Below, one piece after another: positions 36,376 to 63,727 of a stretch of 64,000 bases of DNA. The notes under the pieces are model-generated. The model had not been told where the DNA came from. It did not search any database and saw nothing but the letters and a program-made list of their open reading frames with translations. Each line of letters opens with the position of its first letter. Within the stretch, counting starts at the first letter, position 1. This DNA is from a virus, in the IMG/VR virus record IMGVR_UViG_3300028197_001952, positions 1-64,000 of that record, one strand, 5' to 3'. The position numbers and the translations under genes were made by a program.

Positions 36376-39300
36376 TTAACCACAATATAGAAAACCATAT
36401 ACTCCTTCTGATTTTCCTTCTGAATCAAATGTTACATCTTCCATTGCTTTTGCAACAGTATAAGAACATTGTGATTGTCTTTCTTCGTACTGAGGATTAT
36501 TATCTCCATCAAATGAAGTAATTACAAATTCTGATGGTTGTTTCATTAAATATCCTTCAGTATCAGAAGAACATAATAAATCACCTCTTGAAACATTCCC
36601 ACCTTGGTTACATACTTTAAATCCTTCTAAATCTTTAGAGTAACTATCCCCAATCGATGCAACTTTCCAAATTGTTTTTGTATCTCTCTCATTTTCTGGT
36701 AAAGTATTACCAAATGAATCCTTATATTCATCGATAGAACCACTTTCAGTTGTTTTCCATAAAATACCAAGAACATCAGTATCTTTTAAACTTGTTGTTT
36801 TTATTATTTGATTATTAGAATCGAATTTAACTAAATCACCTACTGATATACTTACACTATTTAATTTTAAATACTGGTGACCTCCTGTAAATTGTTGTAT
36901 TAAACCAATGTCAGTTGCGTTGGATGCAACTGCTGTTCTAGTTGTAGCAATCGAGTCTGAACCAAATCTAGTTGATTCTTTAAATTTCGCGCCATTTCCA
37001 TCAATTTCAAAAATAGTACTAAATGCACTACTACGTGTACCATCATAAAATTTAATACTAGATTTTATCCTCAAACCATCAGTTGCATCAGGGGAGAATA
37101 CATCACTAAAAGGTGAACCACCAACTTTAGCAGTAGTACCAAATGATGCAACACCTGAAGAACTTATATTAAAATCTGGTGCTGATATGAATCCACCATT
37201 ATTAATTGTCATACCAGTAGTTGTATTAGCTCCATCACTCCCACCATCTAGATTGGAGGTCGATAATGCACTTGCACTAAGTGTCCATCCACCAATTGTT
37301 CCTCCGGTTGATGTTATATTACCAGTAGAAGCAACTTTGAATACAGGCGTTTGTCCACCGAACTCTATTGTACCATTAGATAAATCAATTCTACCAAGTG
37401 CAACACCTTTATCATCAACATTAGCACTACTAATAGTTCCTGTTGTTATTGCACTACCATTGATTGCAGTTGTATTAAAAGAACCACTTGCTCCATCACT
37501 CAGAGTAGAACCGCTGAACGTTACTAATCCGCTAAATCCTATTGCTTGAGTAGCTGAACCAAATGAAACACTTGCTACTCCACTTCCAGCTGAAGTTTCA
37601 GTTGCGGTATAATCAGCGTACCAATATACATTAGAATTACCCGCTTCATATAATGGTGTTGCTGTACTCCAATTACTTGTAAGTCCTGTAAAGGTATTTG
37701 GAAATGTCATTGATGTTGCACTTACAATACCTGGACTAGTAGCCGAAGAAAGGGTGTAATTAACTCTACCTGTTGCGGTTCTTAATCCATTATCACCAGG
37801 ATCACCATCATCACCAGGATCTCCATCATCTCCTTTTGCTCCATCTTCTGCAAAGTTAGCAAATAACGCAGGTGTTGAGAAATTTCCAAACGTTCCATTT
37901 ACAGAAGTTCTTTGACTAACCCATACATATTTTTGAGTAGCTGAAGTTGTACCCGGAGTAGCAGCCCAACTATCTGTTCCGATTGCAGTTGGTGTATTTG
38001 GAGCTGATGCTGAATTATTAAGTAAGTATGCAAATTGAATACCACCACCTTCTTCACCAGCTTTTGATTTACTTAATGTTTGTGTTTTAGTGAAACTGAA
38101 ACTAGTTCCATTTAAAGTCTTACCACTAATAGTATATGTGATGGTTACAGAATCAGTTCCATCTACCATTGCTGAATGATTTGCAACAAGTGCATTATTT
38201 GATGAATCTGTTATACCACCAATTGTAATTGTTGTAGATGGAGATTGTGCCGCTGAAACTGTAAAATGACCAGCAGTTGTACCACTTGCATCATAATCCA
38301 ATGCAGTAGCTCCTTCGAATACACTTATTGTAGTTCCACTACCACCATAATCAGAAACAACACCTGCATCAGAAGCAGGTAATACATGAGCTTCGTTGGA
38401 TACTATTGCTGCTACATTTCCACTTCCTACATCTAATTGTTTTAAAGTAAAACTATCTGCAACACTACCATCAACCGAAGCTGCGGTATAAGTTACAACC
38501 ATTCCATCTACAAAGTTTGCACTTGTAACAGTTGCAGAACCACCACTTGAACTAACTGTTTCATCTGTTAGTGTTCCAGCTGTTTCGGTGAACGCACCAT
38601 TTGCCGTTAAGTTTTGTCCATTTGCGGTTAATACAATTGATGATGGAGTTAGTGTACCATCTTGTGCTTTTGTAAATATATTAGATGTTCCACTAAGTAC
38701 TACTGTTTTAGCATTATCTCCAGCAACTCCTTCTACTCCTTCTTTTGCTTTACTTATTGCTTGTGTTTTAGTGAAACTGAAACTAGTTCCATTTAAAGTC
38801 TTACCACTAATAGTATATGTTAATACAACATTAGCTACAGAATTTGACATTGCTGAGTGGTCACCTACAACAGCGAAATCTGTATCTTGTGTTATAGTTC
38901 CAATTGTTAATGTTGAACTTGGAGATTGTGTAACAGAAACATCCCAATGACCGGCAGTTGTTCCTGCTTCATCATAATCTAAAGCAGTTGCTCCCTCGAA
39001 TACACTTATTGTAGTCCCACTACCTGCGTAGGAAGAAACAACACCTGCTGCATTTGCTGGAAGTACATGAGCTTCATTCGCTAATATTGCGGTTACATTT
39101 CCACTACCTTCATCTAATTGGTTTAATGTTACAGTATCTGCAATTGAGCTATCATCAGAATGTGCAGTATATGTTACAGTCATTCCATCTACGAAGTTTG
39201 CACTTGTTACAGTTGCAGAACCACCAGAAGTGTTTTCTGTTTTATTTGTAAGTGTTACTGAAGGTGAAGTGGTAAATGAACCTTTTTTAGTTAAGTTTTG

Positions 39301-42300
39301 ACCATTTGCAGTTATTACGATTGATGTTGGACTTAAAACACCAGCTCTATTTTTTCTAAATATTGGTGATGCTGAAGTTAAGGTTATTGTTTTGGCATTT
39401 GTACCAACTACTCCTTCCCTTGCTTTTGAAAAACTTTGAGTTGTTGTACGTGTGAACGCTTCCCCTCCAAGTCTTTTTCCTGATATTGTATAAGTTAAAA
39501 CAACAGAATCAACACTCATTGCTGATGGAGCTGATATTGTTGCAAGTGTTGTTCCGTTACCGCTAATCGTTCCTTCTGTTAGTCCCCCAACATCTTCTAT
39601 AGTAATACTAAACTCTCCGTTTGTAGGTGTTCCTGTTGTAAACGTGAGAATATTACCTCCTTCATACACTTCTATTAGAGTTCCCCCTCCAGTAAAAGAA
39701 CTTATGGCTCCAGTTGCAGTTGCAGGATATGTGTGAGATGAATTAGAATTAGTTATTTGTATTGCATCTTGTCCTGCTCTACCCTTGGTAATACTTTGTT
39801 GAAATGAACCACTAAATAATTCTCCATTTAGTTTTTTACCTGCATATGGATATGAAATATTAACTGCATCAGTATCAAGTGCCATTGCCGTATGGTCTGC
39901 AACTACTGCGTGTTGTCCACCATCAGTTATAGTACCAACTGTTACCTTACCAGTAGGAGTAACTACGGTTGTTAATAAATCCCACTCACCATCTCCGGTT
40001 CCTGATGGTACATATGAAAGTAATTGTGCTCCTTCAAATATACTTAAATCTGCTCCACTATTAGAAAAATCTGTAACTGAACCGGATGCATCTGCTGGAA
40101 ACATATGTGATTGGTTTGTATTTAAAACAGTCAAACCATCTGTTCCTGTATCTACCCTAACGATTGATACATCATCTTGAAATGTAGTACCATTTTCAGA
40201 ACCACTTACACTAATTACGGTTTGAACCGTATCTGACATTTCTGAAGATGCTATGGTTCGTGTTGCACCACTTCCACCTAATGTAATACCATTTGTTGCA
40301 TGAAACGATAATGATCCTGAAATATTATCTTTAGCTGCAGTAATGGTTATACTAGATGGAGTAATATTACCATCTTTTCCTTTTATAAAAACTTGTCCTG
40401 ATGATTGTAGTGAAACCGTTTTTGCACTAACCCCATCTTCTCCATCAGAAATAATATACCAAGTTTCGTTAATTGTATTTTTTTGTTGAGTTCCTGGGTC
40501 TGTAAATACTGCAGTTACATTTATATCTTTGGATGCATAAGCATTTCCAAATGGTATATTTGTTGAATCACCATCTGCCGCTGTCATTACTATATGACCA
40601 TTTCCACTTTGTCCAGCAGCAGGACTTGCAATTGTTAAGTTATCTAAAGGGTCATTAAAACTAGGTGTAATTGTTGTGGATAATCTATACTCACTACCAG
40701 TTGTATCAAAAAATATTGCGGTTGCGGTTAAGGATGCTGGATCATATGATGAACTTCCTACCAATCTTCTTGTAACTTTACCATTAGATGCTACAAACGA
40801 ACCTCCACCAAGACCATCGGTAACATCTACCAATGCTATAGTATCAAGCAATGTTCCATCATCTTTTCGTAAATGATATGTTGCTTGTCCATTTATTGCA
40901 CTACTATTAAGAACTGGATTATAAGTTACTCCATTTCCACCATCACTTGTTCCTAATAATGAAGTAGTAAGAAGAGTACTTCCACTATAAATTTGAGCAT
41001 CTCCTTGAGAAGAACCACTCACATCAAATGAACCAGTTCCATCAATACCTTGTACTTGTAATTCTAAAGTAGCCGTAGGTATATGTGATCCCAACGAAGG
41101 TTTATTACTTCTTCCTGCATTTTTTATTTGTGTACCTCTTAATGGTCTAATAAAAAATGTTGGTTTTACATCTTCTCCAGGTTTTACAAATATAATACTT
41201 TCAGTATCCGATGCTATTTCTGTTGTATTATCAAGTGCCTCAGAAACACCAACCCTAAATGAAAGTGGTGTACTTATAAAATTAGCTGGTGGTGTAAATG
41301 TTGTAGTTTTACTATTAGCAGTAGTTCCATCAGAAAATGATGTTTCATCGGTAAAATGTGATCCTCCACCTGTAAATTTAAAATGTGCATTTCTAAAATT
41401 AGTAGAACTTGCAGATATAGTTACAGAAGATGGTGATGGGTTTGTTCCATTTGCATCATACATAATAGAATTATCACTAAATGATAAACCTACTTTTTTT
41501 GATGGTGAACCCTCTGAAGCAACCCCAACTAAAAAATTAATTGTTTTTCCTGTAAACTCAGTTCCTTCTGAATTTGTTAGAGATAATGTGATAACTCCAC
41601 TTACTGCAGTTCCAGATGTTGGTGTATTTGGAGTAATTGTTCCATTATTATTATTTGTTCCATTTGTTACACCAGTAATTTTAAATTTATTAGCAGTGAC
41701 TGTTCCTGTTGTGTGTGTGAAATCTGTAGAACCTTGGTTTACACTAACACTTACATTCGATGGTGTAGTAAATGTAAGAAAATCGTACTCAGAACTTACA
41801 TTTTGAGTTTGTGGATTTGCTATTATTGTTGTAATAGGTTTTGCTTCTCTAATACGAGATATACTTGCAACAATATTTTTAGTACCAGATGTTCCCTCAC
41901 CATCTGTAAAGTTTACTGGAATAGTAATGGTTTCTGTATCAGATAACATATCATCCGCAGTATCACTAAATGTAATAGTATTTGATGATACCGTTCCACT
42001 CAATCCTCCACTAAAAGTAGGAGTTGAAATTGAAGTAAATCTATTAGTTCCACCCTCTGTTGCTTTTACTTCAATAGTTTTAGGTGATTCAGAACCACTT
42101 CCTACTGAATTTGCATTTATTCCTTGTGATTGTAAGTTTACACTTACCTCTACATTTGGAACTGCTTTTTTAGATTTTGTATAAGATACAATTTTTTGAA
42201 ATGATTGGGATGTTGCATTATCACCTGCAAGATATTCTATGTTTAAACTTAATGAACCACTATCGTGTTGATTTGGAAATGCAGATATACCATACTCTGA

Positions 42301-44853
42301 TGTTGTTGGTGATGTCGATATTGCAGTTACATTTGTTTCTGTTATCGAAGTAATATCAAATGTGTTTTTATTTCTTCCTCCACTAATATCATCGTGTGTT
42401 ATTTGAGTACCACCGATAAACATTTGTACATTTCCTTTACTTGAACCGAAACCACCAGGTACATCTCCTGTTGATTTTGCTGGAAATGAAGTTGATTCAT
42501 TTGAAAGAACAAGTGAAACTGCATCAAAGTTTATAACAGGTGATATTGTTATCTCATCTGAAAATGGTAAATCAAATTGATCAGAACCAGTAAATGAATA
42601 TGTTGTTTCTGGAAATGATGAACCAGCGAATGATGAAGAATATGCTAAAGCTGATATTGTGTATGTATCAATACCTGTTCCATTATCAGTTACAGGTCCA
42701 ACTAATGGTGGAGCTCCACTTCCTGAGTTTACTTCAATTGGAGTTGATAATGAAAATAAGTTTTTACGTTGAGCTCTTATAGTTGCACTCTGTCCACCTG
42801 GTTTTGGTGAAAGAGTTGTTGGTTCATATATAAATTGATTTACATTTGATGTTACAATAAGTTGTGGTGCATTATCACCATCTTCTAATCTATATACGGT
42901 TTCAAATTCCGTCTGTTCTTCTAACGATGCAGTATAAACAATAGAACCTACTGTAATAGAATCATCACTACCACTAAAATCTGCAATTTTTATGATTGCA
43001 CCAGCTGGTGTTACATTTGTAAGAGTTCCAGGATAAGTACCGGTATATGATGATGGAATTATGTATGCACCATTTTCATCAAAGGCAGCTGATGCGTAAG
43101 TTACAGAACCTGTTAAGTTATTTCCACGAGTTTTAAATTGTATTTGTTGAAATGGTGGATTACCTATCGAACCACTTGTAAACCTAAATGCATTTCTATC
43201 AGATTCAAAAGTAAGTAGTTTATCACTTCCTGGGAAATCGTTACCACCTGTAAATGCTTTTGTTGTAGTTACATCAACAGGTATATAATTGTTATTTATA
43301 TCATAAAACTCAAATTTGAAATCAAATGTTTCTATTGCGAGTTTTCTTGGAATATCTTGTATTAGAGTAAATTCATCTGGTGAGAATGAAGTATCTTGTG
43401 CGTTCTTAAGAGATACATTAGAAATGTACCAATCACCACCATTTATATCAAATTTTAAAAAAGTATCTGCTGTAGTATCAGTTGCTAGTATATTTTGAGA
43501 TACGGTTTGTCTTGTATTGTATATATCAGAACCTTCTATTGTTAAAAAATTCTGTTCATAATTAGAACCACTAAAATATGCACGTATTGATGGAGTTCCC
43601 ACCGAACCACTTTTTAAAGTTCTGAAATTAAGAGTATATTCAACTCCACTTGATATTTCAAAACTACCACTTGTAGATAATGTTTGAATACCACCTTCAG
43701 ATTCATCATAATCTATTTTAACAGATGCATTTAATATATCCGAATTAATTGTAACAGGATGGTCATCAGATGAGGTTACCCAATAGTTACTTAAATTGGT
43801 TTCATCAAATCTACCATATGATAATTCAGTATCAGATGTTGTTGTTATATCTTTTAATAGTTCTGATGATTCTAGTTTGGATTCTTGTACAAATTGAAAA
43901 TCTCCAATTGTGTTTCTTGATTTTCTAAATACTTTTACTCTGGCAACATCACCAACAAATGTTTTTAGGTTATTGAAGTTTATTTTTGCAAAAGAACCTG
44001 TTAATGCAGAATCTGTTATTGTTTGTCCTTCTACGAATTCAAAGGTTGTTGTGTATGGATTTGGAAAGAAATCACTAACCGAACCATCACTTGAAGTAAA
44101 TGGAGTATCAACCATCACTTCCTTATTACTTAATACTTCAATTACATTTGAAGAGTAATTTAAAGAAGGAACTGAAATTGTATTATCATCTACCGAAGAT
44201 GTCCAATTAGTAATTCCATCCTCTATTTTTAATTTATAATTTACACCAGCTCTCCAATTAGATAAATCAGTTCCACTTGGTGGATTTTGTGATATACCTG
44301 ATAAACTACCTGTTTGTGTAATTTGGGGGATATTTTTTGTAAATATGGGTTTTACTAGTTCATCTACTTTTACTGTTGGTCTTCTGTAAAATCTAACAAT
44401 AGTTTCATTAGAAACGTTTTTATTTATCTGTATAGATTTTTCCCACTTTACATTATAAACACCTGCCCACTCATTTGGTATATTAACTATTTCACCAATA
44501 TCACTTAGATAGGTTTTTAATTCACCAAGAATGGTAATTTTACCAATACCAATAGATACATCATCATAAACATGTATTGCTATTAATTTAGAATTCCCTT
44601 CATAATATTCAGGAACTCCATCACCAGGCTCAAAATATATTGGATTACCATCCACATCAAGAATTTCTATCTTGATTTCAGTAGATTCCTTTAAGTGCTC
44701 AGAACCTTCAATTAAGAATCCATTCTTACCACCTGTTAAGGTTTCATTTAATTCTGTAATTCTAAAGTACTCTGAATTTGGTGACTCATCATCCTCAAAT
44801 ACTTGAAAATTTGATAAGTTCAGAAAAGGAGCGTATGATTTAATTATTGCCAT
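36376..44853 (-). CDS. Giant tail fibre or receptor-binding structural protein (~2,825 aa) with internal repeats and a C-terminal chaperone-like domain
   Basis: S/T/G-rich beta modules, repeated NE(A/S)H..PA...G motifs, a short collagen-like stretch, and C-terminus GDLLCSS...YTVAKA...YCG. Start placed at MAIIKS, 18 nt downstream of the ATATTTATA motif. Confidence 0.75.
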   Translation of the reverse strand: MAIIKSYAPFLNLSNFQVFEDDESPNSEYFRITELNETLTGGKNGFLIEGSEHLKESTEIKIEILDVDGNPIYFEPGDGVPEYYEGNSKLIAIHVYDDVSIGIGKITILGELKTYLSDIGEIVNIPNEWAGVYNVKWEKSIQINKNVSNETIVRFYRRPTVKVDELVKPIFTKNIPQITQTGSLSGISQNPPSGTDLSNWRAGVNYKLKIEDGITNWTSSVDDNTISVPSLNYSSNVIEVLSNKEVMVDTPFTSSDGSVSDFFPNPYTTTFEFVEGQTITDSALTGSFAKINFNNLKTFVGDVARVKVFRKSRNTIGDFQFVQESKLESSELLKDITTTSDTELSYGRFDETNLSNYWVTSSDDHPVTINSDILNASVKIDYDESEGGIQTLSTSGSFEISSGVEYTLNFRTLKSGSVGTPSIRAYFSGSNYEQNFLTIEGSDIYNTRQTVSQNILATDTTADTFLKFDINGGDWYISNVSLKNAQDTSFSPDEFTLIQDIPRKLAIETFDFKFEFYDINNNYIPVDVTTTKAFTGGNDFPGSDKLLTFESDRNAFRFTSGSIGNPPFQQIQFKTRGNNLTGSVTYASAAFDENGAYIIPSSYTGTYPGTLTNVTPAGAIIKIADFSGSDDSITVGSIVYTASLEEQTEFETVYRLEDGDNAPQLIVTSNVNQFIYEPTTLSPKPGGQSATIRAQRKNLFSLSTPIEVNSGSGAPPLVGPVTDNGTGIDTYTISALAYSSSFAGSSFPETTYSFTGSDQFDLPFSDEITISPVINFDAVSLVLSNESTSFPAKSTGDVPGGFGSSKGNVQMFIGGTQITHDDISGGRNKNTFDITSITETNVTAISTSPTTSEYGISAFPNQHDSGSLSLNIEYLAGDNATSQSFQKIVSYTKSKKAVPNVEVSVNLQSQGINANSVGSGSESPKTIEVKATEGGTNRFTSISTPTFSGGLSGTVSSNTITFSDTADDMLSDTETITIPVNFTDGEGTSGTKNIVASISRIREAKPITTIIANPQTQNVSSEYDFLTFTTPSNVSVSVNQGSTDFTHTTGTVTANKFKITGVTNGTNNNNGTITPNTPTSGTAVSGVITLSLTNSEGTEFTGKTINFLVGVASEGSPSKKVGLSFSDNSIMYDANGTNPSPSSVTISASSTNFRNAHFKFTGGGSHFTDETSFSDGTTANSKTTTFTPPANFISTPLSFRVGVSEALDNTTEIASDTESIIFVKPGEDVKPTFFIRPLRGTQIKNAGRSNKPSLGSHIPTATLELQVQGIDGTGSFDVSGSSQGDAQIYSGSTLLTTSLLGTSDGGNGVTYNPVLNSSAINGQATYHLRKDDGTLLDTIALVDVTDGLGGGSFVASNGKVTRRLVGSSSYDPASLTATAIFFDTTGSEYRLSTTITPSFNDPLDNLTIASPAAGQSGNGHIVMTAADGDSTNIPFGNAYASKDINVTAVFTDPGTQQKNTINETWYIISDGEDGVSAKTVSLQSSGQVFIKGKDGNITPSSITITAAKDNISGSLSFHATNGITLGGSGATRTIASSEMSDTVQTVISVSGSENGTTFQDDVSIVRVDTGTDGLTVLNTNQSHMFPADASGSVTDFSNSGADLSIFEGAQLLSYVPSGTGDGEWDLLTTVVTPTGKVTVGTITDGGQHAVVADHTAMALDTDAVNISYPYAGKKLNGELFSGSFQQSITKGRAGQDAIQITNSNSSHTYPATATGAISSFTGGGTLIEVYEGGNILTFTTGTPTNGEFSITIEDVGGLTEGTISGNGTTLATISAPSAMSVDSVVLTYTISGKRLGGEAFTRTTTQSFSKAREGVVGTNAKTITLTSASPIFRKNRAGVLSPTSIVITANGQNLTKKGSFTTSPSVTLTNKTENTSGGSATVTSANFVDGMTVTYTAHSDDSSIADTVTLNQLDEGSGNVTAILANEAHVLPANAAGVVSSYAGSGTTISVFEGATALDYDEAGTTAGHWDVSVTQSPSSTLTIGTITQDTDFAVVGDHSAMSNSVANVVLTYTISGKTLNGTSFSFTKTQAISKAKEGVEGVAGDNAKTVVLSGTSNIFTKAQDGTLTPSSIVLTANGQNLTANGAFTETAGTLTDETVSSSGGSATVTSANFVDGMVVTYTAASVDGSVADSFTLKQLDVGSGNVAAIVSNEAHVLPASDAGVVSDYGGSGTTISVFEGATALDYDASGTTAGHFTVSAAQSPSTTITIGGITDSSNNALVANHSAMVDGTDSVTITYTISGKTLNGTSFSFTKTQTLSKSKAGEEGGGIQFAYLLNNSASAPNTPTAIGTDSWAATPGTTSATQKYVWVSQRTSVNGTFGNFSTPALFANFAEDGAKGDDGDPGDDGDPGDNGLRTATGRVNYTLSSATSPGIVSATSMTFPNTFTGLTSNWSTATPLYEAGNSNVYWYADYTATETSAGSGVASVSFGSATQAIGFSGLVTFSGSTLSDGASGSFNTTAINGSAITTGTISSANVDDKGVALGRIDLSNGTIEFGGQTPVFKVASTGNITSTGGTIGGWTLSASALSTSNLDGGSDGANTTTGMTINNGGFISAPDFNISSSGVASFGTTAKVGGSPFSDVFSPDATDGLRIKSSIKFYDGTRSSAFSTIFEIDGNGAKFKESTRFGSDSIATTRTAVASNATDIGLIQQFTGGHQYLKLNSVSISVGDLVKFDSNNQIIKTTSLKDTDVLGILWKTTESGSIDEYKDSFGNTLPENERDTKTIWKVASIGDSYSKDLEGFKVCNQGGNVSRGDLLCSSDTEGYLMKQPSEFVITSFDGDNNPQYEERQSQCSYTVAKAMEDVTFDSEGKSEGVYGFLYCG
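37787..37843 (-). repeat. Collagen-like Gly-X-Y stretch with an 18-bp tandem repeat
   Basis: Encodes GAKGDDGDPGDDGDPGDNG. Confidence 0.8.
38060..39421 (-). repeat. Tandem intragenic duplication, unit 681 bp (227 aa)
   Basis: Identical 60-mer at 38080-38139 and 38761-38820; near-identical segments at ~38500-38545 and 39181-39226; both pairs offset by 681 bp. Confidence 0.85.
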
Positions 44854-44871
44854 AGAAATATATCTTTCCAA

Positions 44872-44880
44872 TATAAATAT
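44872..44880 (-). promoter_or_regulatory. ATATTTATA motif (putative phage late promoter)
   Basis: 18 nt upstream of the giant fibre gene start at 44853. Confidence 0.6.
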
Positions 44881-44904
44881 TTAGAAAAAATATTTACTCA
44901 TATA

Positions 44905-44926
44905 TATCTATAGAAATCTATAGATA
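44905..44926. promoter_or_regulatory. Palindromic operator-like site: two TCTATAGA palindromes 10 bp apart
   Basis: TATCTATAGA-AA-TCTATAGATA directly abuts the ATG of the RHH gene. Confidence 0.6.
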
Positions 44927-45088: not shown

Positions 45089-45100
45089 TTACGTATATAT

Positions 45101-53134: not shown

Positions 53135-53782
53135 TTATAATCTTCTATCCCTTACAAAAGGTTGTTTTAGAATTACTTCTACCGGTATAGTTTGTGAACC
53201 ACCAGTTTCGTTTCCGTAAACGGTAATAGTTGTTTTGATACTTTGTGTTAAATTTGGGTTTGGAATAAAAACAAAATTTAATCCAGTTTCAATAGCCGCA
53301 GTTGCAGTTAATTCATCACCTAAAAATGTTGGTGTTGTTCCTGCTCCAGCTGCTAATCCTTGTCCAACTATAGAACCTGCGTTCTTGTTAGCTAATATCA
53401 TAGTATATCCACTTTGTGTGTTACCACTAGGTGAAGTTGTTGGGGAAAGTGCTACTTTACCAGATTCAGGTCCTACCTTTAAACTTGGAATACCAAATTC
53501 TACTTTAGGAATCTTAACAGTTCCTTTTGGTAAAGTTACCAATTTATATTTTAATACTTGTGTTTCATCTGGAGAAGCTTCCGTAATTGGAATTGCTTTG
53601 ATTGCTGCATCATAAAATGCACTACCCTTTGGGTGTGCTGGTTCATATAATGTGTAATCTACCTCATCATCACCTAATGCGAATTTTGAGATACTAAGTC
53701 CTTCACCTGCTGCTAGCTTTTCTCTACCCTTTTTGGTAAGAATAGCATCAACTGTTATTTCTGCGTTATTTAAATAAGCCAT
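53135..53782 (-). CDS. Virion structural protein (tail-collar-like N-terminus)
   Basis: DAILTKKGREKLA..ISKFALGDDEVDY resembles the N-terminus of P2 gpH-type tail-collar domains. Confidence 0.58.
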   Translation of the reverse strand: MAYLNNAEITVDAILTKKGREKLAAGEGLSISKFALGDDEVDYTLYEPAHPKGSAFYDAAIKAIPITEASPDETQVLKYKLVTLPKGTVKIPKVEFGIPSLKVGPESGKVALSPTTSPSGNTQSGYTMILANKNAGSIVGQGLAAGAGTTPTFLGDELTATAAIETGLNFVFIPNPNLTQSIKTTITVYGNETGGSQTIPVEVILKQPFVRDRRL

Positions 53783-53810
53783 AATGTAATTTTCCCTTTG
53801 TTATTCAATA

Positions 53811-56800: not shown

Positions 56801-59260
56801 ACCTTCCCCTTCTACTAACTTTAAATCAGATGTAACAAAATTTATGTTTAAATGGTCTAATGCGAAATCTGAAGATGATACAAATTGGTTAACAACATCG
56901 GTTGATGATTGAGAACCACTTGAAATTAAATCATCTAAAATTTGATAACCAATTACATCATTTGTTTCTAATGCAAAATTAGGAGTTAATGGTATACAAT
57001 TTTTTGAAATATCATCAACTATTGTGATTTGGTCAATTATAGGTATTGCCTGTAATTTTGATATCCAAAGAGAATCATTTAAATTAACACTAGCAGGAAG
57101 TGGTTCATATAGTTTTAAAACAAGTGATTTCTCTATATTAGTATATTCTACATCATTTGTTTCAGGATTGGTAACTTTATCTGAGAAAGTTGTTTCATCA
57201 ATTCCCCATGTTGCGATTAACTTATTATTACCTTCTCCTAAATGTAGATAGTGAGTTAAGAATGGAGAAATTGAATCTTGAAATATTGAGGAATCAAAAC
57301 GATTTACAAATGCATTTCTAATATCTGCAACAACATCTCCTCTTCTAAGATTTAAATCTCCAGCTTCGAATGAAATACTTATTTTTTCAGTTTTACCTGC
57401 AGTTAATGAATCTCCTTCTGAGTTATATGGTATTAATACTAAATCAAATTGTATTACTCCTTTAACTTCAACAGGTTTTATTTTTAAAGAGTTTAATTTT
57501 TGTAAAACATCTTTTACATTAAATGATGATACACCTGATTCTGAAAACCGTCCTAGTGATGATGTATTACTTTCACGTCCGGCATAAATCTTAATATAGT
57601 TAGTATTAATAGATTGCCAACTAATTTGAAATGGAACATTATTTCCCTTAAAATCTGCTCCTATAATGTTTTGTGGGTATTCTATGTTTGTAATATCAGG
57701 ACCAGGTATAAAAGCTCTACTTTCAACCGTTACTGATACTTTTGCGTTCTGGCTACTACCTCCTTTGTTAGAAAGTGCTTGTAAGTAAATAGTGTAATTA
57801 CCTACTCCATTATAGAAATCAGCATTACTTAGTACTAAACTACCATTTGTTTCAATTTCTCTTCTTGTTTTACCAAGAGTATAAATTACTTTATCTGCAT
57901 TAACACTTCTATATGGTATTTTGACCGTTTCTTTATCAGCTAAATTTAGTTTAACTCTACTGATATCAACCGCTATACTTGGTTCGAGTGGAGATTCTTC
58001 TACTGCAACTTTTGTAGCATTAACTACAATGTTAGTTTGTCCTGCAACTAAATCAAGAGTAAGTTCTTTAGTTCTATTAGTTTGATTTTGTCTATTACTA
58101 GGTGTATTGTATTTAAAAGATACCGTATGTGTAAAATCAGAAATACCAACAGAAGAAAATGTTATAGATGGAATTTTTTTAGCTCCTGCTATTGGGGTGT
58201 GTTCTAAATCAATTTCCCCATCAGATAATAAAAATCCACCCTGTCCCCATGATGTTTTATATTGTATTATATTATCAGAAGAAACGAAGCTTTCTATATT
58301 TACTTCAATTGGAGTATTAACAATAGGATCTTCTTTCGGGTCTTCATTTATAATTACCTTTGTTAAATCAAATGGTAGATTAGCAAACTGAGATTTGTTA
58401 ATTGTATCTGTTATTGTATTTATTTGATTTAATAGAGGAACTTCCTTTCCATTCTTTTCTAATCTAAATTCATAGTAATCAAATTCTACTGTACTAACTG
58501 GTCTTGGTGCTTTAGGAATTCTATCTTTAGTAGGTGCAGAGTAACCTAAACTTCCTTGAGCAGAACTAAATCCACCTGTGCCTCTTCCTATATTATCGTT
58601 AAATTCAATACCTCTACCTCTAGTTTGAAGACCAAAATCATCAAAATCATTATTTCCAATAGGTATTAAATTTGGATTTACATTATCATCAAATCCCGGA
58701 CCTCTAACATTTATATCAAGTTGGTTATCAAATAAATCAAATAAATCAACTACAGGAGCTACTGTTTTAGTGAATTTTTTCTTTGTAGAATATAGTTTGT
58801 ATTCATCTTCTGAAGTAAAACCTGCTTTTACTATCTTGAAATACTGTGGTGTTAGTAGTTGTTTTCCAGTATAGTTGTATACCTTAGCTGGTGTTGATAA
58901 TGTATCCTTACCATTTAACATGATACTACCACCATTAGTAGAAGTAACATTAACTTGTATAGTTCTACTTTCTGATAATACTGTTGGTGGTTTTGATGGA
59001 TATTTACAAGTACCATTATTAACAGTAGCTGCTTGGTTATAGTTTGTTGCATTTCTATCAGTACATCCACTTATGACAGATACAGTTCTTCCACCTCCGC
59101 CTCCACCAGAACCACGTCCTCCTCCACCAAGGTTTTGGACAAAATCTATACCTTCACCACCACCATTGAGGTTACTTCCATCTCCGAATCCGTCTCTTGA
59201 TCCTAGATTTTCGTTTCGGTTGTTACTACCTCCATCTAAATATTGATTTCCTCTAGCCAT
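53864..59260 (-). CDS. Large baseplate or structural protein with wedge-like segment, LamG domain and a GCTD repeat
   Basis: LLNNLPYLQKNKGTRRAISAALSCYG (wedge/P2 gpI-like KGT motif); GSIDEFRLWS (LamG); N-terminal Gly-rich region and GCTDRNATNYNQAATVNNGTC. Confidence 0.68.
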   Translation of the reverse strand: MARGNQYLDGGSNNRNENLGSRDGFGDGSNLNGGGEGIDFVQNLGGGGRGSGGGGGGRTVSVISGCTDRNATNYNQAATVNNGTCKYPSKPPTVLSESRTIQVNVTSTNGGSIMLNGKDTLSTPAKVYNYTGKQLLTPQYFKIVKAGFTSEDEYKLYSTKKKFTKTVAPVVDLFDLFDNQLDINVRGPGFDDNVNPNLIPIGNNDFDDFGLQTRGRGIEFNDNIGRGTGGFSSAQGSLGYSAPTKDRIPKAPRPVSTVEFDYYEFRLEKNGKEVPLLNQINTITDTINKSQFANLPFDLTKVIINEDPKEDPIVNTPIEVNIESFVSSDNIIQYKTSWGQGGFLLSDGEIDLEHTPIAGAKKIPSITFSSVGISDFTHTVSFKYNTPSNRQNQTNRTKELTLDLVAGQTNIVVNATKVAVEESPLEPSIAVDISRVKLNLADKETVKIPYRSVNADKVIYTLGKTRREIETNGSLVLSNADFYNGVGNYTIYLQALSNKGGSSQNAKVSVTVESRAFIPGPDITNIEYPQNIIGADFKGNNVPFQISWQSINTNYIKIYAGRESNTSSLGRFSESGVSSFNVKDVLQKLNSLKIKPVEVKGVIQFDLVLIPYNSEGDSLTAGKTEKISISFEAGDLNLRRGDVVADIRNAFVNRFDSSIFQDSISPFLTHYLHLGEGNNKLIATWGIDETTFSDKVTNPETNDVEYTNIEKSLVLKLYEPLPASVNLNDSLWISKLQAIPIIDQITIVDDISKNCIPLTPNFALETNDVIGYQILDDLISSGSQSSTDVVNQFVSSSDFALDHLNINFVTSDLKLVEGEGSTGTYSLEHPSRSIDFGNFVKYSSAVERVENFVYKVKLIQSYEERYGGLVSGSSIEFGGVSSNITGAASSSVAVTNEAQRTLGKISEVKKGFDSFEKFLFTSSSISNITYPGAGQNALSASTHQASLNWYENTIVSASNFDADNSSRLVNNLPLHIKNDPEGSTFPLFFDMVGQHFDVLWLHIKGISQTKQLEHKFENGINDKLIYHMLESLGWDADMGAQSQTLWEYAFGKNSDGSTATTMSGKDRQNEIWRRLLNNLPYLQKNKGTRRAISAALSCYGIPQSMLTVMEFGGPQPGNGTSTFTYDDRTSSINISGSNSIVVPWKSHKEYYPNSVEFRLNTNQKKDQRLISANGWSLDLDYLDSGSLAKLTFNILNGATYVSSSTEQVVVFNDEYAQINVNRITGSTEDTFNVYLKEGVDGRIRNTAFTAISTPSGSSGWESGNVLTLGGSTLTGSIDEFRLWSAPLSESVIKDHTLMPEAINGNHISSSTEDLLLRLDFEYPKDRSSAGDTSIKNVSIDTTYSSFVTASNFTSITDYPHQYVVYDRSVTAQVPSSGFAPGNKVRFETQTKITDLSYRSRATKKSLDQAPLDSDKLGLFFSPTKEINLDIMKSLGGFEIDNYIGDPGDAFKTEYGELSKLRNYYFKRFNLNIGEYIQLVRYIDKSLFDVLESLVPARAKVATGILISPHILERSKIEQRPTTASPHNHAGVVKVEHTIKSTDNVVSGKLSAQDDTKLKGNKNDFNGLVDSTTSTNLVGSYQTINATLDINNLTKEQGFITRNSGSDMAGISFNIDASITGSIQGEFDGTIFNQVGMDPDSLTVAGFGLYGENGHAIITKLDKDNNFYKVRKRVDVITESYTVDVPENINSSDSSMGRHFVTQTFERKKISFRNFADSGSITGNNIVSVVPLDGYVPYHYRNVGDLTSGLENSFSNGSKQTSKTTLDGGSPVQTFTTNPNTLRVSDSGRGSGEPILEVD

Positions 59261-59263
59261 GTA

Positions 59264-59272
59264 TATAAATAT
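59264..59272 (-). promoter_or_regulatory. ATATTTATA motif (putative phage late promoter)
   Basis: Only 3 nt upstream of the 59260 ATG. Confidence 0.55.
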
Positions 59273-59287
59273 CTTTATTTAACATTG

Positions 59288-61324
59288 TTATAACTCTCTT
59301 GGGGTTCGTGGTCTTTTCAAAACAACTTCATCTCCTCTACCACGAGAAAGATCTAAATTTTCTTCAAGATTAAATTCAAAATTATCTGCATATCCTGTTC
59401 CTGTTCCTCTTCCTCCAGTTTGTGTACCTGTTCCAATAACTATTGGTGTTGATATAGGAGTTGTTGGTGGTTTCACTACCGGTTTTGGTTGTGGTGGCAA
59501 AGGTGGTGGATTTGGATTAGGTTTTGGTGATGGAGGTGGTGTTGGTTTTATAACAACAACTGGCGGTGTTGGTTTAGGTTGTTGTGTAACACAAGGTCCT
59601 AACTCAATACATACAATACCAGGTCCTTTTGATATAGAACCTTTTTGAGCACATATAGTTGTTGTATCACCAGGTAGTAAATTACTCGATGTTTTGGTAT
59701 TACCCACTGCATCTTTATATGTTACTGATAATGGAACTGTTACTACACCACGTCCAGGTTTTTGGAAAAATCTATTTCTTTCAAAACCACCCATTCCACG
59801 ATTACCTTTGTTTTGGTTCATTGAACGATTATCAGCTCCAGGTCCATAATTATTCATATAATCTTCATTTATTCCACCCGCAGGAGATAGTAGATTTGGG
59901 AAGTTGTTACTATTTCTAACACTATACATACGAGTTGATACTGTTTTAACTGGTTTAGGCGTTTCCCTAACATCTCCACTAAACTTAATAGTGGCTTTAT
60001 CATATGTGATGTTAAATGAATCATACTCAACTCCGTTAACAATCTTTGAATTTCCATTTTGCTTATATTTGATAGTTCCGGTTGCTGACCATACATAATA
60101 GTTTTTAGTAATTGTATCAACTCTACCTTTATATTTACACGTACCATCATCCTTAGTAGCATTTCTATTATAATTAAGTGCAGCTGGATCGGTACATCCT
60201 TTGATTGCTGGTTCTTCTTCTTCAACTTCTTCAACTTCTTCAACTACTTTATACCTACAACTACCATCATTATCTTGTGCCAATGAATTGTAATTTTCAG
60301 CTTTGGGGTCAGTACATCCCCTTACTCGTGCATTAACTTTATCTGGAACAGTTGAAGTAAATGATGAATTAGCTGTAACAGATTTCAATATCTGTGAAAC
60401 TTTGTCAAATGTTATTTGTTCTTCTTTACTTAAAATACTATCTCTTTGTATATCTCTTTTTGGTAAATAAAAATCAATAATATTAATTAAAGATTGTTGT
60501 GCATCTCTTTCTAGTTGTGGTATTGATAAATCAATACAATCCGATTTGTCTCCCAATGCATTACCATAATTTACATCATTAATACTCCAATTTCTATTTG
60601 AAGCATAATAATTCATTGATTCAATAAATTTTGTTTTGATTCTGTTTATTAATATTTCAAAACTAGGTATATTGAATTCTGTTTTAATTGTATTTATATA
60701 TTCAACTCCATCACTTTCTGTTCCTTTTGACATTAAGAAATCTTGAAGTATTTTTTCTAAATCTAAATTTTCAATAAAAACGTTAATATAATAAATTACA
60801 TCATCTCTAAATGTTGTATTATCAAGAAATACATTTAATCTTTTTTCTAAATCTTTGTTTGCTCCCTTTGCTCTATTCGGTAAAATTCTAATCTCAGTTC
60901 TTGATGCGGATATCTCATGTACCCATAAATTATTTTCATCAGGAACATCTGTACCCAATCTTCTATTTAAAAGAGTTACTTGAGTTTTGAATATTCCATT
61001 AGAATATCCCGCTTCTCTAATTAATTTTTCAATATCTACTATAAATTCAGGAGTTCCGTTTGATTTTTTAGTAAATTCATTATCTGAAATTATAAAGTAA
61101 TCGTTAATATTTACATCATCAATATAAATGTATCTTACTAACTTACCATCATCTCCTTGTGGTAGTTGGTTTTCACTTGAATCAAATAATATAAATTCGA
61201 TCATATCAGAACAACCTAACCCAAAGTTAGATTTAGATATTTCTTTTTCAAATACCTTTCTATCTTCAGAGTCAACCTTGTACCCTTTTCTATCAATAAT
61301 CTCTTTAAATCCCTCTATCGCCAT
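59288..61324 (-). CDS. Structural-region protein with two GCTDP repeats and a Pro-rich tail
   Basis: EISASRTEIR; GCTDPKAENYNSLAQDNDGSC and GCTDPAALNYNRNATKDDGTC; PKPTPP tract. Confidence 0.65.
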   Translation of the reverse strand: MAIEGFKEIIDRKGYKVDSEDRKVFEKEISKSNFGLGCSDMIEFILFDSSENQLPQGDDGKLVRYIYIDDVNINDYFIISDNEFTKKSNGTPEFIVDIEKLIREAGYSNGIFKTQVTLLNRRLGTDVPDENNLWVHEISASRTEIRILPNRAKGANKDLEKRLNVFLDNTTFRDDVIYYINVFIENLDLEKILQDFLMSKGTESDGVEYINTIKTEFNIPSFEILINRIKTKFIESMNYYASNRNWSINDVNYGNALGDKSDCIDLSIPQLERDAQQSLINIIDFYLPKRDIQRDSILSKEEQITFDKVSQILKSVTANSSFTSTVPDKVNARVRGCTDPKAENYNSLAQDNDGSCRYKVVEEVEEVEEEEPAIKGCTDPAALNYNRNATKDDGTCKYKGRVDTITKNYYVWSATGTIKYKQNGNSKIVNGVEYDSFNITYDKATIKFSGDVRETPKPVKTVSTRMYSVRNSNNFPNLLSPAGGINEDYMNNYGPGADNRSMNQNKGNRGMGGFERNRFFQKPGRGVVTVPLSVTYKDAVGNTKTSSNLLPGDTTTICAQKGSISKGPGIVCIELGPCVTQQPKPTPPVVVIKPTPPPSPKPNPNPPPLPPQPKPVVKPPTTPISTPIVIGTGTQTGGRGTGTGYADNFEFNLEENLDLSRGRGDEVVLKRPRTPREL

Positions 61325-62664: not shown

Positions 62665-62665
62665 T

Positions 62666-63727
62666 TTACAATTCTACGGTGAATGTCAAATCTTTATCTT
62701 CAAAGTATTCTATTACACCATTTCTATTTATCTTTGTTTCAATATAATAATCTCTATTAATTTCCCAATTTGTTAAATTTAATTTAAAGAAGTGTCCGTT
62801 TGCATCACAACTAACTTTAGTATAGGTATCATCAAATGGAACAACTACTTCACCAGTTACTATATCTTTAATTTGATAATAAACGGTTGATGGTAAGTAT
62901 TTAACATCTTTATAAGAATATGTGTTGGCGTAAGTCTTAAGAGGATATTTTTCTCTTGCAAAAACTCTTATTGTTGGTTTACTTCCTCTCTTATATGTAG
63001 TTTTTAATCTTTTGAATGTTACATGTATATCATCTGATGTAAGTTCTGTGAGAGAACCAGTATTATACGTAGAATCATCCCAACCAATTCTTAATTTAGG
63101 TTGGTAAATAGTATTTGTTTCTTTTGAAAAGAATTTTAACTGTCCATAATCTTCAGTATCATTTTCTAATGCAGAATCATGCATTAGGATTAATCCATTA
63201 TTTGGGAATGTACCTGCCACCCACTTATTAATTGGTTCTAATATGTTCATTGCCATATCAGCTGATTGATATTCAAATGATTGAGATACTGCAGAACCAG
63301 TTAGCCACATTCCTCCCTTACCATTATGTGAACCTGAACTCTCTAATGAAGCTGAACCGATTAACCAATTAGAAGAAGATGTTCTCTTGTTCCAAGTACA
63401 ACCATCGGTTGATATTTTATCAAATCTAGTACCAATACCACCATCCCATGATTGAGAAATTGCATATCCGTATATTGTGTAATCTGTTGGAATCTCTACA
63501 GATTCACATTCTCTAAGTACTAAATCTGCGGATGATGCCGTGATTTCTCCACTTGCGATTGAAGAAGATATTTCATTTGTATTAAATTGAATTAATGTAT
63601 GTGCAATATCTTTTAAATTACCATAATATGTTTTAGATATTTCCAATATCTCATCTCTACCAGTATTTTGAGATGGTTGTTGTAAATAAATTGTTGAATC
63701 TTTTGATGCTGTTACGAAATAATACAT
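62666..63727 (-). CDS. DNRLRE/CBM96-like virion protein
   Basis: ASKDSTIY..NTG..EILEI, LIQF, NNGLIL, FFSKET..PKLRIGWDD. Confidence 0.55.
   Translation of the reverse strand: MYYFVTASKDSTIYLQQPSQNTGRDEILEISKTYYGNLKDIAHTLIQFNTNEISSSIASGEITASSADLVLRECESVEIPTDYTIYGYAISQSWDGGIGTRFDKISTDGCTWNKRTSSSNWLIGSASLESSGSHNGKGGMWLTGSAVSQSFEYQSADMAMNILEPINKWVAGTFPNNGLILMHDSALENDTEDYGQLKFFSKETNTIYQPKLRIGWDDSTYNTGSLTELTSDDIHVTFKRLKTTYKRGSKPTIRVFAREKYPLKTYANTYSYKDVKYLPSTVYYQIKDIVTGEVVVPFDDTYTKVSCDANGHFFKLNLTNWEINRDYYIETKINRNGVIEYFEDKDLTFTVEL

What the first reader, a model, noticed from the sequence alone, without database searches (positions are those of the whole stretch)
36376..63727. (S/T)-G-S motif recurs in structural proteins but not enzymes: candidate phage glycosylation sequon
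Seen (manual counts of SGS/TGS): 6 in the 384-aa protein (ISGSL, ISGSY, ISGSQ, ISGSV, VSGSW, PTGSY), 6 in the 407-aa, 3 in the 353-aa, about 10 in the C-terminal part of the 1,798-aa and about 23 in the giant fibre, plus many SAS/TAS/SSS variants. I found none in terminase, the SbcCD fusion or the 1,853-aa polyprotein, and only one in the glycan enzymes I checked. The motif is scattered through unrelated proteins rather than forming a tandem repeat. Inference: a convergently accumulated acceptor sequon for the adjacent GT cluster, i.e. a phage-encoded protein O-glycosylation system covering the tail and baseplate. Together with the cluster, this is the best candidate for an undescribed system here.
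Basis: partly seen in the sequence, partly recalled or inferred. Interest (0 to 1): 0.9.

Follow-up and report, generated by a model that had tools for sequence, protein, structure and literature searches.

The report
Ser/Thr-Gly-Ser motif on phage tail proteins
The outer baseplate and fibre proteins of this uncultured marine jumbo T4-like phage carry the tripeptide Ser/Thr-Gly-Ser four to five times too often; it is an old, conserved motif that may be a sugar-attachment tag or a purely structural turn, and it is not tied to the neighbouring sugar-gene island.

Summary
SGS is the most over-represented tripeptide in the five proteins: 34 observed against 7-9 expected, z about 9-10. This holds under local shuffles. 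It is a protein-level signal, not a DNA word.

The motif is strict: [S/T]-G-S with an obligate Ser at position 3. SGT, TGT, SAS and SSS are not enriched.

It is not convergent accumulation in unrelated proteins. The excess sits in positionally conserved columns. p384 and p407 share a domain. In relatives' fibres SGS is the core of 15/19-residue tandem repeats.

The same excess occurs in Flavobacterium phage immuto and Microcystis phage Mel-JY01. Their sugar clusters share no homolog with the window's island, and that island is mosaic even within the clade. T4, Syn9 and P-TIM40 show no excess.

The glycosylation genes that track the motif are a soluble GT4-GT4-GT2 core. It lies about 130 kb away in complete genomes and is absent from this contig.

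My reading: an acceptor tag for that core (about 0.42) against a purely structural turn or repeat (about 0.40). No chemistry exists. Immuto and Mel-JY01 are cultured, so the question is testable. The scan has flagged this motif in about 41 other windows, with similar verdicts.

The parts
36376..44871 (-). Giant tail fibre (2,831 aa): 17 SGS + 6 TGS against 9.45 [ST]GS expected.
   Evidence: The G001 ortholog is 55% identical over 1,083 aa. Pfam gives only a weak collagen hit.
50625..51779 (-). 384-aa outer baseplate protein, ortholog of immuto gp105: 5 SGS + 1 TGS. Five of them lie in residues 282-340, spaced 8-18 residues apart (mostly 15).
   Evidence: The C-terminal domain is shared with p407. 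The family holds 2.68 SGS per protein vs 0.27 expected.
51866..53089 (-). 407-aa outer baseplate protein, ortholog of immuto gp106: 4 SGS + 2 TGS at positionally conserved sites (residues 83, 131, 204, 235, 286, 350).
   Evidence: AF2 places the sites at strand ends and hairpin turns. No known fold was found.
53864..59260 (-). 1,798-aa baseplate protein, ortholog of immuto gp109 and in the gp7 position by synteny: 7 SGS + 3 TGS in residues 781-1717, with a weak LamG-like segment at 1156-1292.
   Evidence: The family holds 6.71 SGS per protein vs 1.32 expected.
62666..63727 (-). 353-aa baseplate protein, ortholog of immuto gp111: marginal member (1 SGS + 2 TGS, p=0.007).
53135..53782 (-). 215-aa protein (ortholog of immuto gp107) inside the module, without the motif. 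Internal negative control.
   Evidence: The family has 0 observed vs 10.0 expected over 81 homologs.
59288..61324 (-). 678-aa protein (paralogous to the N-terminus of the 1,798-aa protein), without the motif. Internal negative control.
   Evidence: The family has 3 observed vs 18.8 expected over 75 homologs.
10160..36385 (-). Adjacent sugar island (context, not shown to act on the motif). It holds an RmlC-like enzyme, aminotransferase, NeuB, CMP-sugar cytidylyltransferase, two radical SAM enzymes, Ugd-like enzyme, two GT7+LamG fusions (29946-31421, 31822-33261), GT2 (33515-34363), methyltransferase (34351-35130) and a 404-aa unknown.
   Evidence: Pfam. Only the fibre-proximal part is shared with clade genome G001. 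There are no homologs in the immuto or Mel-JY01 clusters. No membrane segments in the enzymes checked.
49766..50344 (-). Sulfotransferase (Sulfotransfer_2) between the structural module and the replication genes. Conserved in 75 of 81 related loci.

Best explanation
[S/T]-G-S, usually flanked by hydrophobic residues (phi-phi-[S/T]-G-S-x-x-phi), is a selected beta-strand/turn motif of the distal tail proteins of a deep 'Far-T4'-type phage lineage. Those proteins are the outer baseplate proteins, the gp7-position protein and the fibres. I think it most likely doubles as a linear acceptor tag: the invariant third-position Ser would be O-glycosylated in the cytoplasm during tail assembly. The enzymes would be a conserved, soluble, phage-specific core of two GT4 enzymes plus a GT2. 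This core lies about 130 kb from the structural module in complete genomes and is not on this contig. The mosaic sugar island next to the fibre gene would at most supply or elaborate variable sugars on that primer. What is shown: the enrichment, its specificity, its conservation, its lineage distribution, and the existence and distribution of the GT core. What is inferred: any sugar attachment, the acceptor residue, and the division of labour between core and island.
For: Specificity beyond a generic turn. Pooled over four phages, SGS is 194/34, TGS 96/27 and DGS 29/16, while SGT is 26/27, TGT 21/22, and NGS, AGS, SGN and SGA are about 1. Ser3 is conserved like a glycine and far more than other serines: 0.86 vs 0.63, 0.60 vs 0.41 and 0.65 vs 0.45, with p from 4e-7 to 4e-3. 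The motif occurs in proteins with no detectable mutual similarity (fibre, 1,798-aa, p407/p384) and is absent from neighbouring virion proteins. It is not a general myovirus trait: T4 baseplate and fibres have 5/5.0, and the giant fibres of Syn9 and P-TIM40 have 1/1.2, 1/1.0 and 5/1.4. The three lineages with strong excess are the window clade (114/38 genome-wide in G001), immuto (33/7.5) and Mel-JY01 (29/3.8). All three carry the syntenic PD-(D/E)XK nuclease, GT4, GT4, GT2 block at 38-51% identity. T4, Syn9 and P-TIM40 lack it. LR756508 and RM378 have only a diverged GT4, and they show little excess beyond the p407 homolog. The core is kept across hosts of three phyla, which argues for a phage-intrinsic substrate. 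Digested immuto DNA shows only dA, dC, dT and fdPreQ1 (PMC10516641), so DNA is an unlikely substrate. Both GT4s keep the E-x7-E motif and have no membrane segment. Their nearest solved relative is the chlorovirus NY-2A GT B736L: E 9e-12 by sequence for the first GT4 and top Foldseek hit for the second.
Against: No chemistry exists. In fibres the motif sits inside periodic repeats with conserved flanks, and in p407 it lies at strand ends and hairpin turns. That is what a purely structural element looks like. The excess is inherited at conserved columns, and recent gains are not in excess. There is no clear proteome-wide avoidance: the other 259 ORFs of G001 have 16 vs 22 expected. The GT-core co-distribution follows the phylogeny, so it counts as roughly one to two independent events. 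RM378 and LR756508 keep one to three of the p407 sites although their GT partner is absent or barely recognisable. The substrate of the GT core is unknown.
Confidence: 0.42

Rival explanations
1. Purely structural or assembly motif. phi-phi-[S/T]-G-S-x-x-phi would be a lineage-specific beta-hairpin or ST-turn unit. It began as a fibre repeat and was reused in outer baseplate domains. Small Ser and Gly residues would be needed for tight packing, for instance on trimer axes. Nothing is attached to it.
For: Tandem 15/19-residue units (P-x-G-V-V-SGS-x-Q-V-T type) and roughly 6-residue units occur in the fibres of clade genome G001. One such fibre has a Peptidase_S74 chaperone typical of trimeric fibres, and one protein weakly resembles left-handed beta-helix. 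AF2 puts the p407 sites at strand ends and hairpin turns. Three p407 sites are conserved at 25-35% identity, each with its own conserved flanks. The excess lies in conserved columns, not in recent gains. There is no strong avoidance elsewhere in the proteome. p384 and p407 share a domain, and the p407 domain has 4-5 paralogs in Mel-JY01.
Against: Generic two-residue turns accept G-S, G-T, G-N and G-D, yet only G-S preceded by S or T is enriched, with SGT, SGN and NGS at expectation. T4, Syn9 and P-TIM40 tail proteins of comparable architecture show nothing. The motif recurs with different flanks in proteins with no detectable similarity.
Confidence: 0.4
2. Tag for some other trans-acting factor or modification. 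Candidates are a tail-fibre assembly chaperone, a kinase, the conserved sulfotransferase, or another Ser-directed enzyme, in place of glycosylation.
For: The same strict linear specificity and Ser3 conservation apply. A Sulfotransfer_2 gene sits inside the structural module and is conserved in 75 of 81 loci. Radical SAM enzymes and a kinase-like protein occur in the island.
Against: No specific candidate co-distributes with the motif across immuto and Mel-JY01. Sulfotransfer_2 is a carbohydrate sulfotransferase family (my own knowledge of the Pfam family). The window's island genes have no homologs in the immuto or Mel-JY01 regions searched.
Confidence: 0.1
3. The motif accumulated convergently as the sequon of the adjacent 26-kb GT island, for example the GT7-LamG enzymes or the GT2, which directly glycosylate it.
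For: The island lies beside the fibre gene. Its fibre-proximal part (404-aa unknown, methyltransferase, GT2, two GT7-LamG, radical SAM) is conserved in clade genome G001. The enzymes are soluble. LamG domains could bind protein or glycan.
Against: Immuto and Mel-JY01 have the same enrichment at homologous sites but no homolog of any island protein. Much of the island (about 13 kb, including the NeuB, cytidylyltransferase, aminotransferase and Ugd block) is absent from G001 although its SGS sites are the same. The sites are inherited, not convergent.
Confidence: 0.06
4. Artefact of S/G/T composition, local low complexity, or a DNA-level word.
For: The five proteins are S/G/T-rich. At SGS the codons are skewed, with AGTGGTTC in 19 of 34 sites.
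Against: z stays at 9-10 even with 10-residue local shuffles. The DNA word occurs on the coding strand only in frame (19 of 19). The AGY-before-Gly skew is a genome-wide codon-pair bias: 64-67% at all Ser-Gly dipeptides in all genes.
Confidence: 0.01

Closest known systems
Virion glycosylation of mycobacteriophages by phage-encoded glycosyltransferases (Freeman et al. 2023, as described in PMC12619734; the original paper was not held)
   Same: Phage-encoded soluble GTs are proposed to act on the phage's own structural proteins in the cytoplasm.
   Different: There, glycans sit on C-termini of the capsid and tail-tube subunits (PMC12619734). Here the candidate sites are internal tripeptides in baseplate and fibre proteins of a T4-like myovirus. 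A defined tripeptide is implied, and nothing has been shown chemically.
Chlorovirus virus-encoded glycosyltransferases (solved example: NY-2A B736L, PDB 3oy2)
   Same: This is the nearest solved relative of both conserved GT4 proteins: E 9e-12 by sequence and top Foldseek hit with TM 0.63-0.68. It is a virus-encoded, soluble GT4 fold with E-x7-E.
   Different: Identity is only about 13%. From my own knowledge, chloroviruses glycosylate the major capsid protein through atypical N-linkages. No function is established for B736L or for the phage pair.
Autotransporter heptosyltransferases acting on beta-helix repeats (Aah/AIDA-I, TibC/TibA)
   Same: By analogy only: cytoplasmic O-glycosylation of Ser in strand-turn-strand units of a repetitive (19-residue) beta-structure adhesin. 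This resembles the 15/19-residue SGS repeats in the clade's fibres.
   Different: The enzyme family is different and was not searched for here. No fixed tripeptide is known for BAHTs (my own knowledge).
GtfA/GtfB glycosylation of serine-rich-repeat adhesins
   Same: An adjacent pair of GT-B proteins is proposed to act on Ser of fibrous adhesins.
   Different: The second protein keeps the E-x7-E motif. GtfA and GtfB are not among the listed sequence or fold hits. SxS repeats such as SAS and SSS are not enriched in the window.
Short beta-structure repeats of phage and viral fibres (for example triple beta-spiral or beta-helix repeats with Gly at the turn)
   Same: Periodic 15/19-residue units carry conserved Gly-containing turns and alternating hydrophobic residues. 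The fibre has a C-terminal Peptidase_S74 chaperone.
   Different: The same strict tripeptide also recurs outside repeats in non-fibrous baseplate proteins. It is absent from T4 and cyanophage fibres.

Membership tests
T4-like ('Far-T4'-type) jumbo myovirus | T4-type portal (gp20), T4-type large terminase, gp46/47-like SbcCD, and a baseplate module syntenic with RM378-related phages | tested here: met
   Portal_T4 E 5e-41, Terminase_6N, and Metallophos+AAA_23. Orthologs of immuto gp105-gp113 appear in the same order. The only cultured relatives of p407 are immuto, Mel-JY01, RM378 and LR756508. Complete clade genomes are 276-289 kb.
Sequon-directed protein O-glycosylation system | A short linear motif over-represented in target proteins beyond composition | tested here: met
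   SGS 34 vs 7.4-9.0. Pooled SGS 194/34 and TGS 96/27, with neighbouring tripeptides at expectation.
Sequon-directed protein O-glycosylation system | A dedicated glycosyltransferase that co-occurs with the motif across lineages | tested here: inconclusive
   The GT4-GT4-GT2 core is present in all three strongly enriched lineages and absent from T4, Syn9 and P-TIM40. The pattern follows the phylogeny, however. An attempt to reach independent lineages returned only the same clade.
Sequon-directed protein O-glycosylation system | Glycan covalently attached to the motif's Ser/Thr | not testable with these tools
   This needs glycoproteomics or glycostaining of virions. None is reported in the papers found.
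Sequon-directed protein O-glycosylation system | Motif on solvent-exposed loops or turns | tested here: inconclusive
   The AF2 model of p407 (pLDDT 58, core 60-88) puts the sites at strand ends and hairpin turns. No coordinates or exposure values were available, and no trimer model of the fibre repeats was made.
Mycobacteriophage-type virion glycosylation | Glycans on C-terminal extensions of the capsid and tail-tube subunits | tested here: not met
   Here the motif is internal and confined to baseplate and fibre proteins. The other proteins on the contig have none. The feature is taken from PMC12619734.
GtfA/GtfB serine-rich-repeat glycosylation | A catalytic GT4 paired with a non-catalytic GT-B co-activator, and SxS dipeptide-repeat substrates | tested here: inconclusive
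   The partner keeps E-x7-E. The listed sequence and fold hits are B736L and generic GT4 enzymes, not GtfA/B. SAS and SSS are not enriched in the window.
Proteoglycan-type (GAG) attachment site | Ser-Gly with acidic flanking residues | tested here: not met
   The flanks are hydrophobic: positions -2, -1 and +1 are 50-59% hydrophobic against a 35% background, and acidic residues are not prominent. The consensus is taken from my own knowledge.
Bacteroidota general O-glycosylation | The sequon D-(S/T)-(A/I/L/V/M/T), from my own knowledge | tested here: not met
   The enriched motif is [S/T]-G-S. Asp at -1 occurs in only 4 of 34 sites.
Structural fibre or beta-turn repeat | Periodic recurrence with conserved flanks, positional conservation, and location at turns | tested here: met
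   15/19- and roughly 6-residue periodicity in clade fibres. Conserved columns. Strand-end and hairpin positions in the p407 model. Meeting this does not exclude a modification at the same sites.

The most novel reading that the evidence does not exclude
An abundant lineage of marine and freshwater T4-like phages would coat the distal tail (outer baseplate and fibres) with sugars through a cytoplasmic, sequon-directed O-glycosylation system. The sequon would be [S/T]-G-S with Ser3 as acceptor. It would be primed by a conserved chlorovirus-like GT4 pair plus a GT2, and diversified by a mosaic sugar island with nonulosonate, GT7-LamG and sulfotransferase chemistry next to the fibre gene. This would be the first defined sequon for phage virion glycosylation.
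Probability: 0.35. Interest if true: 0.85.

Novelty: new variant of a known kind. Interest (0 to 1): 0.55.

Why it matters
If the serines carry sugars, this would be a phage-encoded protein glycosylation system with a defined sequon. It would sit on the host-recognition apparatus of one of the most abundant uncultured phage groups in the sea: more than 4,000 p407 homologs and more than 8,000 homologs of each GT in public data. That would bear on host range, on particle stability, and on how phages mask their tails. If the motif is structural, it defines a new fibre and baseplate building block specific to this lineage. Either way the question can now be tested directly, because two cultured phages, Flavobacterium phage immuto and Microcystis phage Mel-JY01, carry both the motif and the GT core.

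Tried and rejected
- Composition and local low complexity as the cause: rejected.
- DNA-level motif or codon artefact: rejected. The word occurs in frame only, and the AGY-before-Gly skew is genome-wide.
- General property of myovirus tail proteins: rejected by T4, Syn9 and P-TIM40.
- Proteome-wide avoidance of SGS in non-target proteins, which would have favoured a trans-read tag: not found. The other 259 ORFs of G001 have 16 vs 22.3, although TGS is 9 vs 20.2.
- Excess of recent or rare SGS gains: not found in the p407 and 1,798-aa families, and only slight in p384.
- Homology between the window's island and the immuto or Mel-JY01 sugar clusters: none at E<1e-3.
- GtfA/GtfB-like pairing: no support.
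- Identity of the p407 fold: no answer. No Pfam or PHROG hit, no PDB sequence hit, no Foldseek hit at E<=0.001, VIA-align best Z 3.3, and the protein atlas shows only unnamed viral clusters.
- Reaching phylogenetically independent carriers of the GT pair with an alignment query: all 80 loci returned belong to the same clade.
- Freeman et al. 2023 (PMC10527164): not held.
- General literature searches for phage tail O-glycosylation sequons: nothing relevant.
Full report
**What the window is.**
All long ORFs lie on the minus strand and GC is about 30%. Pfam finds a T4-type portal, a T4-type large terminase, an SbcCD fusion, a DnaG-like primase and a SegE-type GIY-YIG endonuclease. It also finds a long run of sugar-metabolism genes at 10160-35130: an RmlC-like enzyme, aminotransferase, NeuB, cytidylyltransferases, two radical SAM enzymes, a Ugd-like enzyme, two GT7+LamG fusions, a GT2 and a methyltransferase. 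A Sulfotransfer_2 gene lies at 49766-50344.

The window is 64 kb of a 77.6-kb contig. Complete genomes of the same clade are 276-289 kb, one with terminal repeats, so this is a fragment of a jumbo T4-like phage. The only cultured phages with homologs of the 407-aa protein are Flavobacterium phage immuto, Microcystis phage Mel-JY01, Rhodothermus phage RM378 and the uncultured 484-kb LR756508. This is the 'Far-T4' neighbourhood (PMC4360716).

By BLAST and synteny with immuto:
- the 353-aa protein corresponds to immuto gp111;
- the 1,798-aa protein to gp109 (the gp7 position);
- the 215-aa protein to gp107;
- the 407-aa protein to gp106;
- the 384-aa protein to gp105.

**The observation.**
Composition-preserving shuffles give p<0.001 for four proteins and p=0.007 for the 353-aa protein.

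Ranking all tripeptides in the five proteins puts SGS first by far: 34 observed vs 7.4 expected, z 9.9. The next best tripeptide has z 5.4. Shuffling only within 40-, 20- or 10-residue windows leaves 34 vs 8.0-9.0, z 8.9-9.5.

In the window TGS is weak (14 vs 7.0). No other gene on the contig has an SGS.

**Protein level, not DNA level.**
Codons at SGS are skewed, with AGTGGTTC in 19 of 34 sites. Two checks dispose of a DNA-level cause:
- On the coding strand that word occurs only in frame, 19 of 19.
- The use of AGY for Ser before Gly is a genome-wide codon-pair bias. It is 64-67% at all Ser-Gly dipeptides, in the five proteins and in all other genes alike, against 24-30% for Ser overall.

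**The motif is lineage-wide and specific.**
I fetched 81 related IMG/VR loci. In them the same families carry the excess:

| Family | SGS observed | SGS expected |
|---|---|---|
| 1,798-aa | 523 | 103 |
| fibre | 181 | 22 |
| p407 | 316 | 48 |
| p384 | 212 | 21 |
| 678-aa | 3 | 18.8 |
| 215-aa | 0 | 10.0 |
| SbcCD | 0 | 7.2 |

The homologous modules of immuto and Mel-JY01 show the same thing. Immuto has SGS 33/7.5 and TGS 28/6.4. Mel-JY01 has SGS 29/3.8 and TGS 16/2.6.

Pooled over the window, G001, immuto and Mel-JY01, the spectrum is sharp:
- SGS 194/34, TGS 96/27, DGS 29/16;
- every other xGS about 1;
- SGT 26/27 and TGT 21/22.

The motif is therefore [S/T]-G-S with an obligate Ser at position 3, usually between hydrophobic residues. 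Ser3 is conserved as strongly as glycine and far more than other serines in all three family alignments.

T4 baseplate and fibre proteins show no excess (SGS 5/5.0). Neither do the giant fibres of cyanophages Syn9 and P-TIM40. RM378 is weak (5/1.6). LR756508 has the motif only in its p407 homolog (3/0.2; the rest 5/3.9).

**Inherited, not convergent.**
- In 82 aligned p407 sequences (the window's protein plus 81 homologs), the six sites are kept in 55-80 sequences, against a mean residue conservation of 0.74.
- Sites 131, 235 and 350 persist at 25-35% identity in immuto and the Mel-JY01 paralogs. Site 235 persists even in RM378, each site with its own flanks.
- Counting distinct alignment columns shows that the excess comes from columns held by at least 50% of sequences: 4+2 in p407, 3+1 in p384 and 5+3 in the 1,798-aa family, plus subclade-level columns. 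Rare columns are no more frequent than for control tripeptides.
- p384 and p407 share a C-terminal domain, and the p407 domain has 4-5 paralogs in Mel-JY01.
- In complete genome G001, SGS totals 114 vs 38 expected, concentrated in 13 ORFs. These include a second fibre cluster.
- In those fibres SGS is the core of tandem 15- or 19-residue units of the P-x-G-V-V-SGS-x-Q-V-T type. In a 342-aa protein it recurs at roughly six-residue spacing.
- One such fibre ends in a Peptidase_S74 chaperone like the phage T5 fibre. The 342-aa protein weakly resembles left-handed beta-helix.
- The AF2 model of p407 (pLDDT 58, core 60-88) places the sites at strand ends and hairpin turns. Its fold matched nothing solved.

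**The link to the adjacent island fails.**
Both immuto and Mel-JY01 have sugar clusters. None of the 30 sugar-island and sulfotransferase proteins of the window that were queried has a BLAST hit in them at E<1e-3.

Inside the window's own clade, G001 keeps only the fibre-proximal part of the island: the 404-aa unknown, methyltransferase, GT2, both GT7-LamG, one radical SAM and the RmlC-like enzyme. It lacks the NeuB, cytidylyltransferase, aminotransferase, Ugd and unknown-gene block. Yet G001 carries the same motif.

**What does track the motif.**
Immuto and Mel-JY01 share a syntenic block: a PD-(D/E)XK nuclease, a roughly 460-480-aa GT4 (480 aa in immuto), a roughly 420-436-aa protein, and a GT2. 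Complete genomes of the window's clade carry it too, at 44-51% identity, about 130 kb from the structural module. It is not on this contig.

Features of these enzymes:
- The 420-aa protein has no Pfam hit. It folds confidently (pLDDT 82) as a GT-B/GT4 enzyme and keeps E-x7-E.
- For both proteins the best solved relative is the chlorovirus NY-2A glycosyltransferase B736L.
- None has a membrane segment.
- T4, Syn9 and P-TIM40 lack the block.
- RM378 and LR756508 have only a diverged GT4. RM378 also has a barely recognisable neighbour.
- Digested immuto DNA contains only dA, dC, dT and fdPreQ1 (PMC10516641), so a DNA substrate is unlikely there.

This distribution fits a tag read by the GT core. 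It also follows the phylogeny, and my attempt to reach independent lineages returned only the same clade.

**Weighing.**
- For a trans-read tag: the strict tripeptide, the glycine-like conservation of Ser3, recurrence in proteins with no detectable similarity, restriction to distal tail proteins, absence from other myoviruses, and a conserved soluble GT core of unknown substrate.
- For a purely structural element: periodic repeats with conserved flanks, turn positions, inheritance at fixed columns, no excess of recent gains, no clear avoidance elsewhere (16 vs 22 in the other 259 ORFs of G001), and retention of some p407 sites where the GT partner is absent or diverged.

I put the glycosylation tag read by the conserved core at about 0.42 and the purely structural reading at about 0.40.

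**Relation to earlier scan notes.**
I had found the GT pair before consulting the scan's notes. The notes show that the same motif was flagged in about 41 other windows. Follow-up agents there reached 'partly supported' and also named a conserved GT pair. These notes are unchecked, and I did not count them as evidence.

**Limits.**
`complex prediction` was unavailable. The primary paper on mycobacteriophage virion glycosylation was not held. Structure tools return no coordinates, so exposure of Ser3 could not be measured.

Noticed in passing
G001 (clade genome) L099:6957-12915; immuto NC_055915 48008-53029; Mel-JY01 PP395634 81375-86972: A syntenic block is conserved at 38-51% identity across phages of Bacteroidota and Cyanobacteria and the window's own clade. 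It runs PD-(D/E)XK nuclease, GT4 (463 aa), GT4-fold protein without a Pfam hit (420 aa), two small unknowns, then GT2 (210 aa). Each GT4 has more than 8,000 homologs in public data. The substrate is unknown.
   Followed up: partly
window 10160-36385 versus G001 105.9-117 kb: The sugar island next to the fibre gene is mosaic within the clade. The fibre-proximal genes are shared at 41-74% identity. The nonulosonate, aminotransferase and Ugd genes and about ten unknown genes of roughly 270 aa are missing from G001.
   Followed up: partly
window 29946-31421 and 31822-33261: Two paralogous soluble enzymes combine GT7 (beta-1,4-galactosyltransferase-like) N- and C-terminal regions with a Laminin_G_3 domain. 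Both are conserved in G001 (74% and 41%).
   Followed up: no
window 49766-50344: A Sulfotransfer_2 (carbohydrate sulfotransferase family) gene sits between the baseplate genes and a SegE-like endonuclease. It is present in 75 of 81 related loci and in G001 (47% identity).
   Followed up: no
window 4412-9973: A 1,853-aa ORF combines cytidylyltransferase-like, HD and poly(A)/CCA-polymerase head domains. Only its last ~400 aa align to G001 as a single HSP (77% identity).
   Followed up: no
whole contig, all genes: There is a strong codon-pair bias. Ser immediately before Gly is encoded by AGY in 64-67% of cases, against 24-30% for Ser overall.
   Followed up: yes
G001 about 182.3-183.3 kb (L110:2300-3328): A 342-aa protein carries 8 SGS and 4 TGS in a roughly hexapeptide rhythm and weakly resembles left-handed beta-helix acyltransferase folds. 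It lies far from both fibre clusters.
   Followed up: partly
G001, the 259 ORFs with fewer than 2 SGS: TGS is under-represented (9 observed vs 20.2 expected) while SGS is near expectation (16 vs 22.3). This is unexplained.
   Followed up: no
Mel-JY01 PP395634 172.5-181.4 kb (L083:14904-23850): The p407-type domain occurs four to five times, as two stand-alone proteins and as the C-terminal domain of three larger tail proteins. Extra lineage-specific SGS sites appear in the paralogs.
   Followed up: partly
RM378 NC_004735 112985-114136: A UDP-galactopyranose-mutase-like gene lies four genes downstream of the RM378 p407 homolog, inside the structural region.
   Followed up: no
window 59288-61324 and 53864-59260: Residues 334-527 of the 678-aa protein resemble residues 62-218 of the 1,798-aa protein (28% identity). 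The 678- and 446-aa proteins have no counterpart among the immuto baseplate and fibre proteins (gp101-gp113) compared.
   Followed up: no
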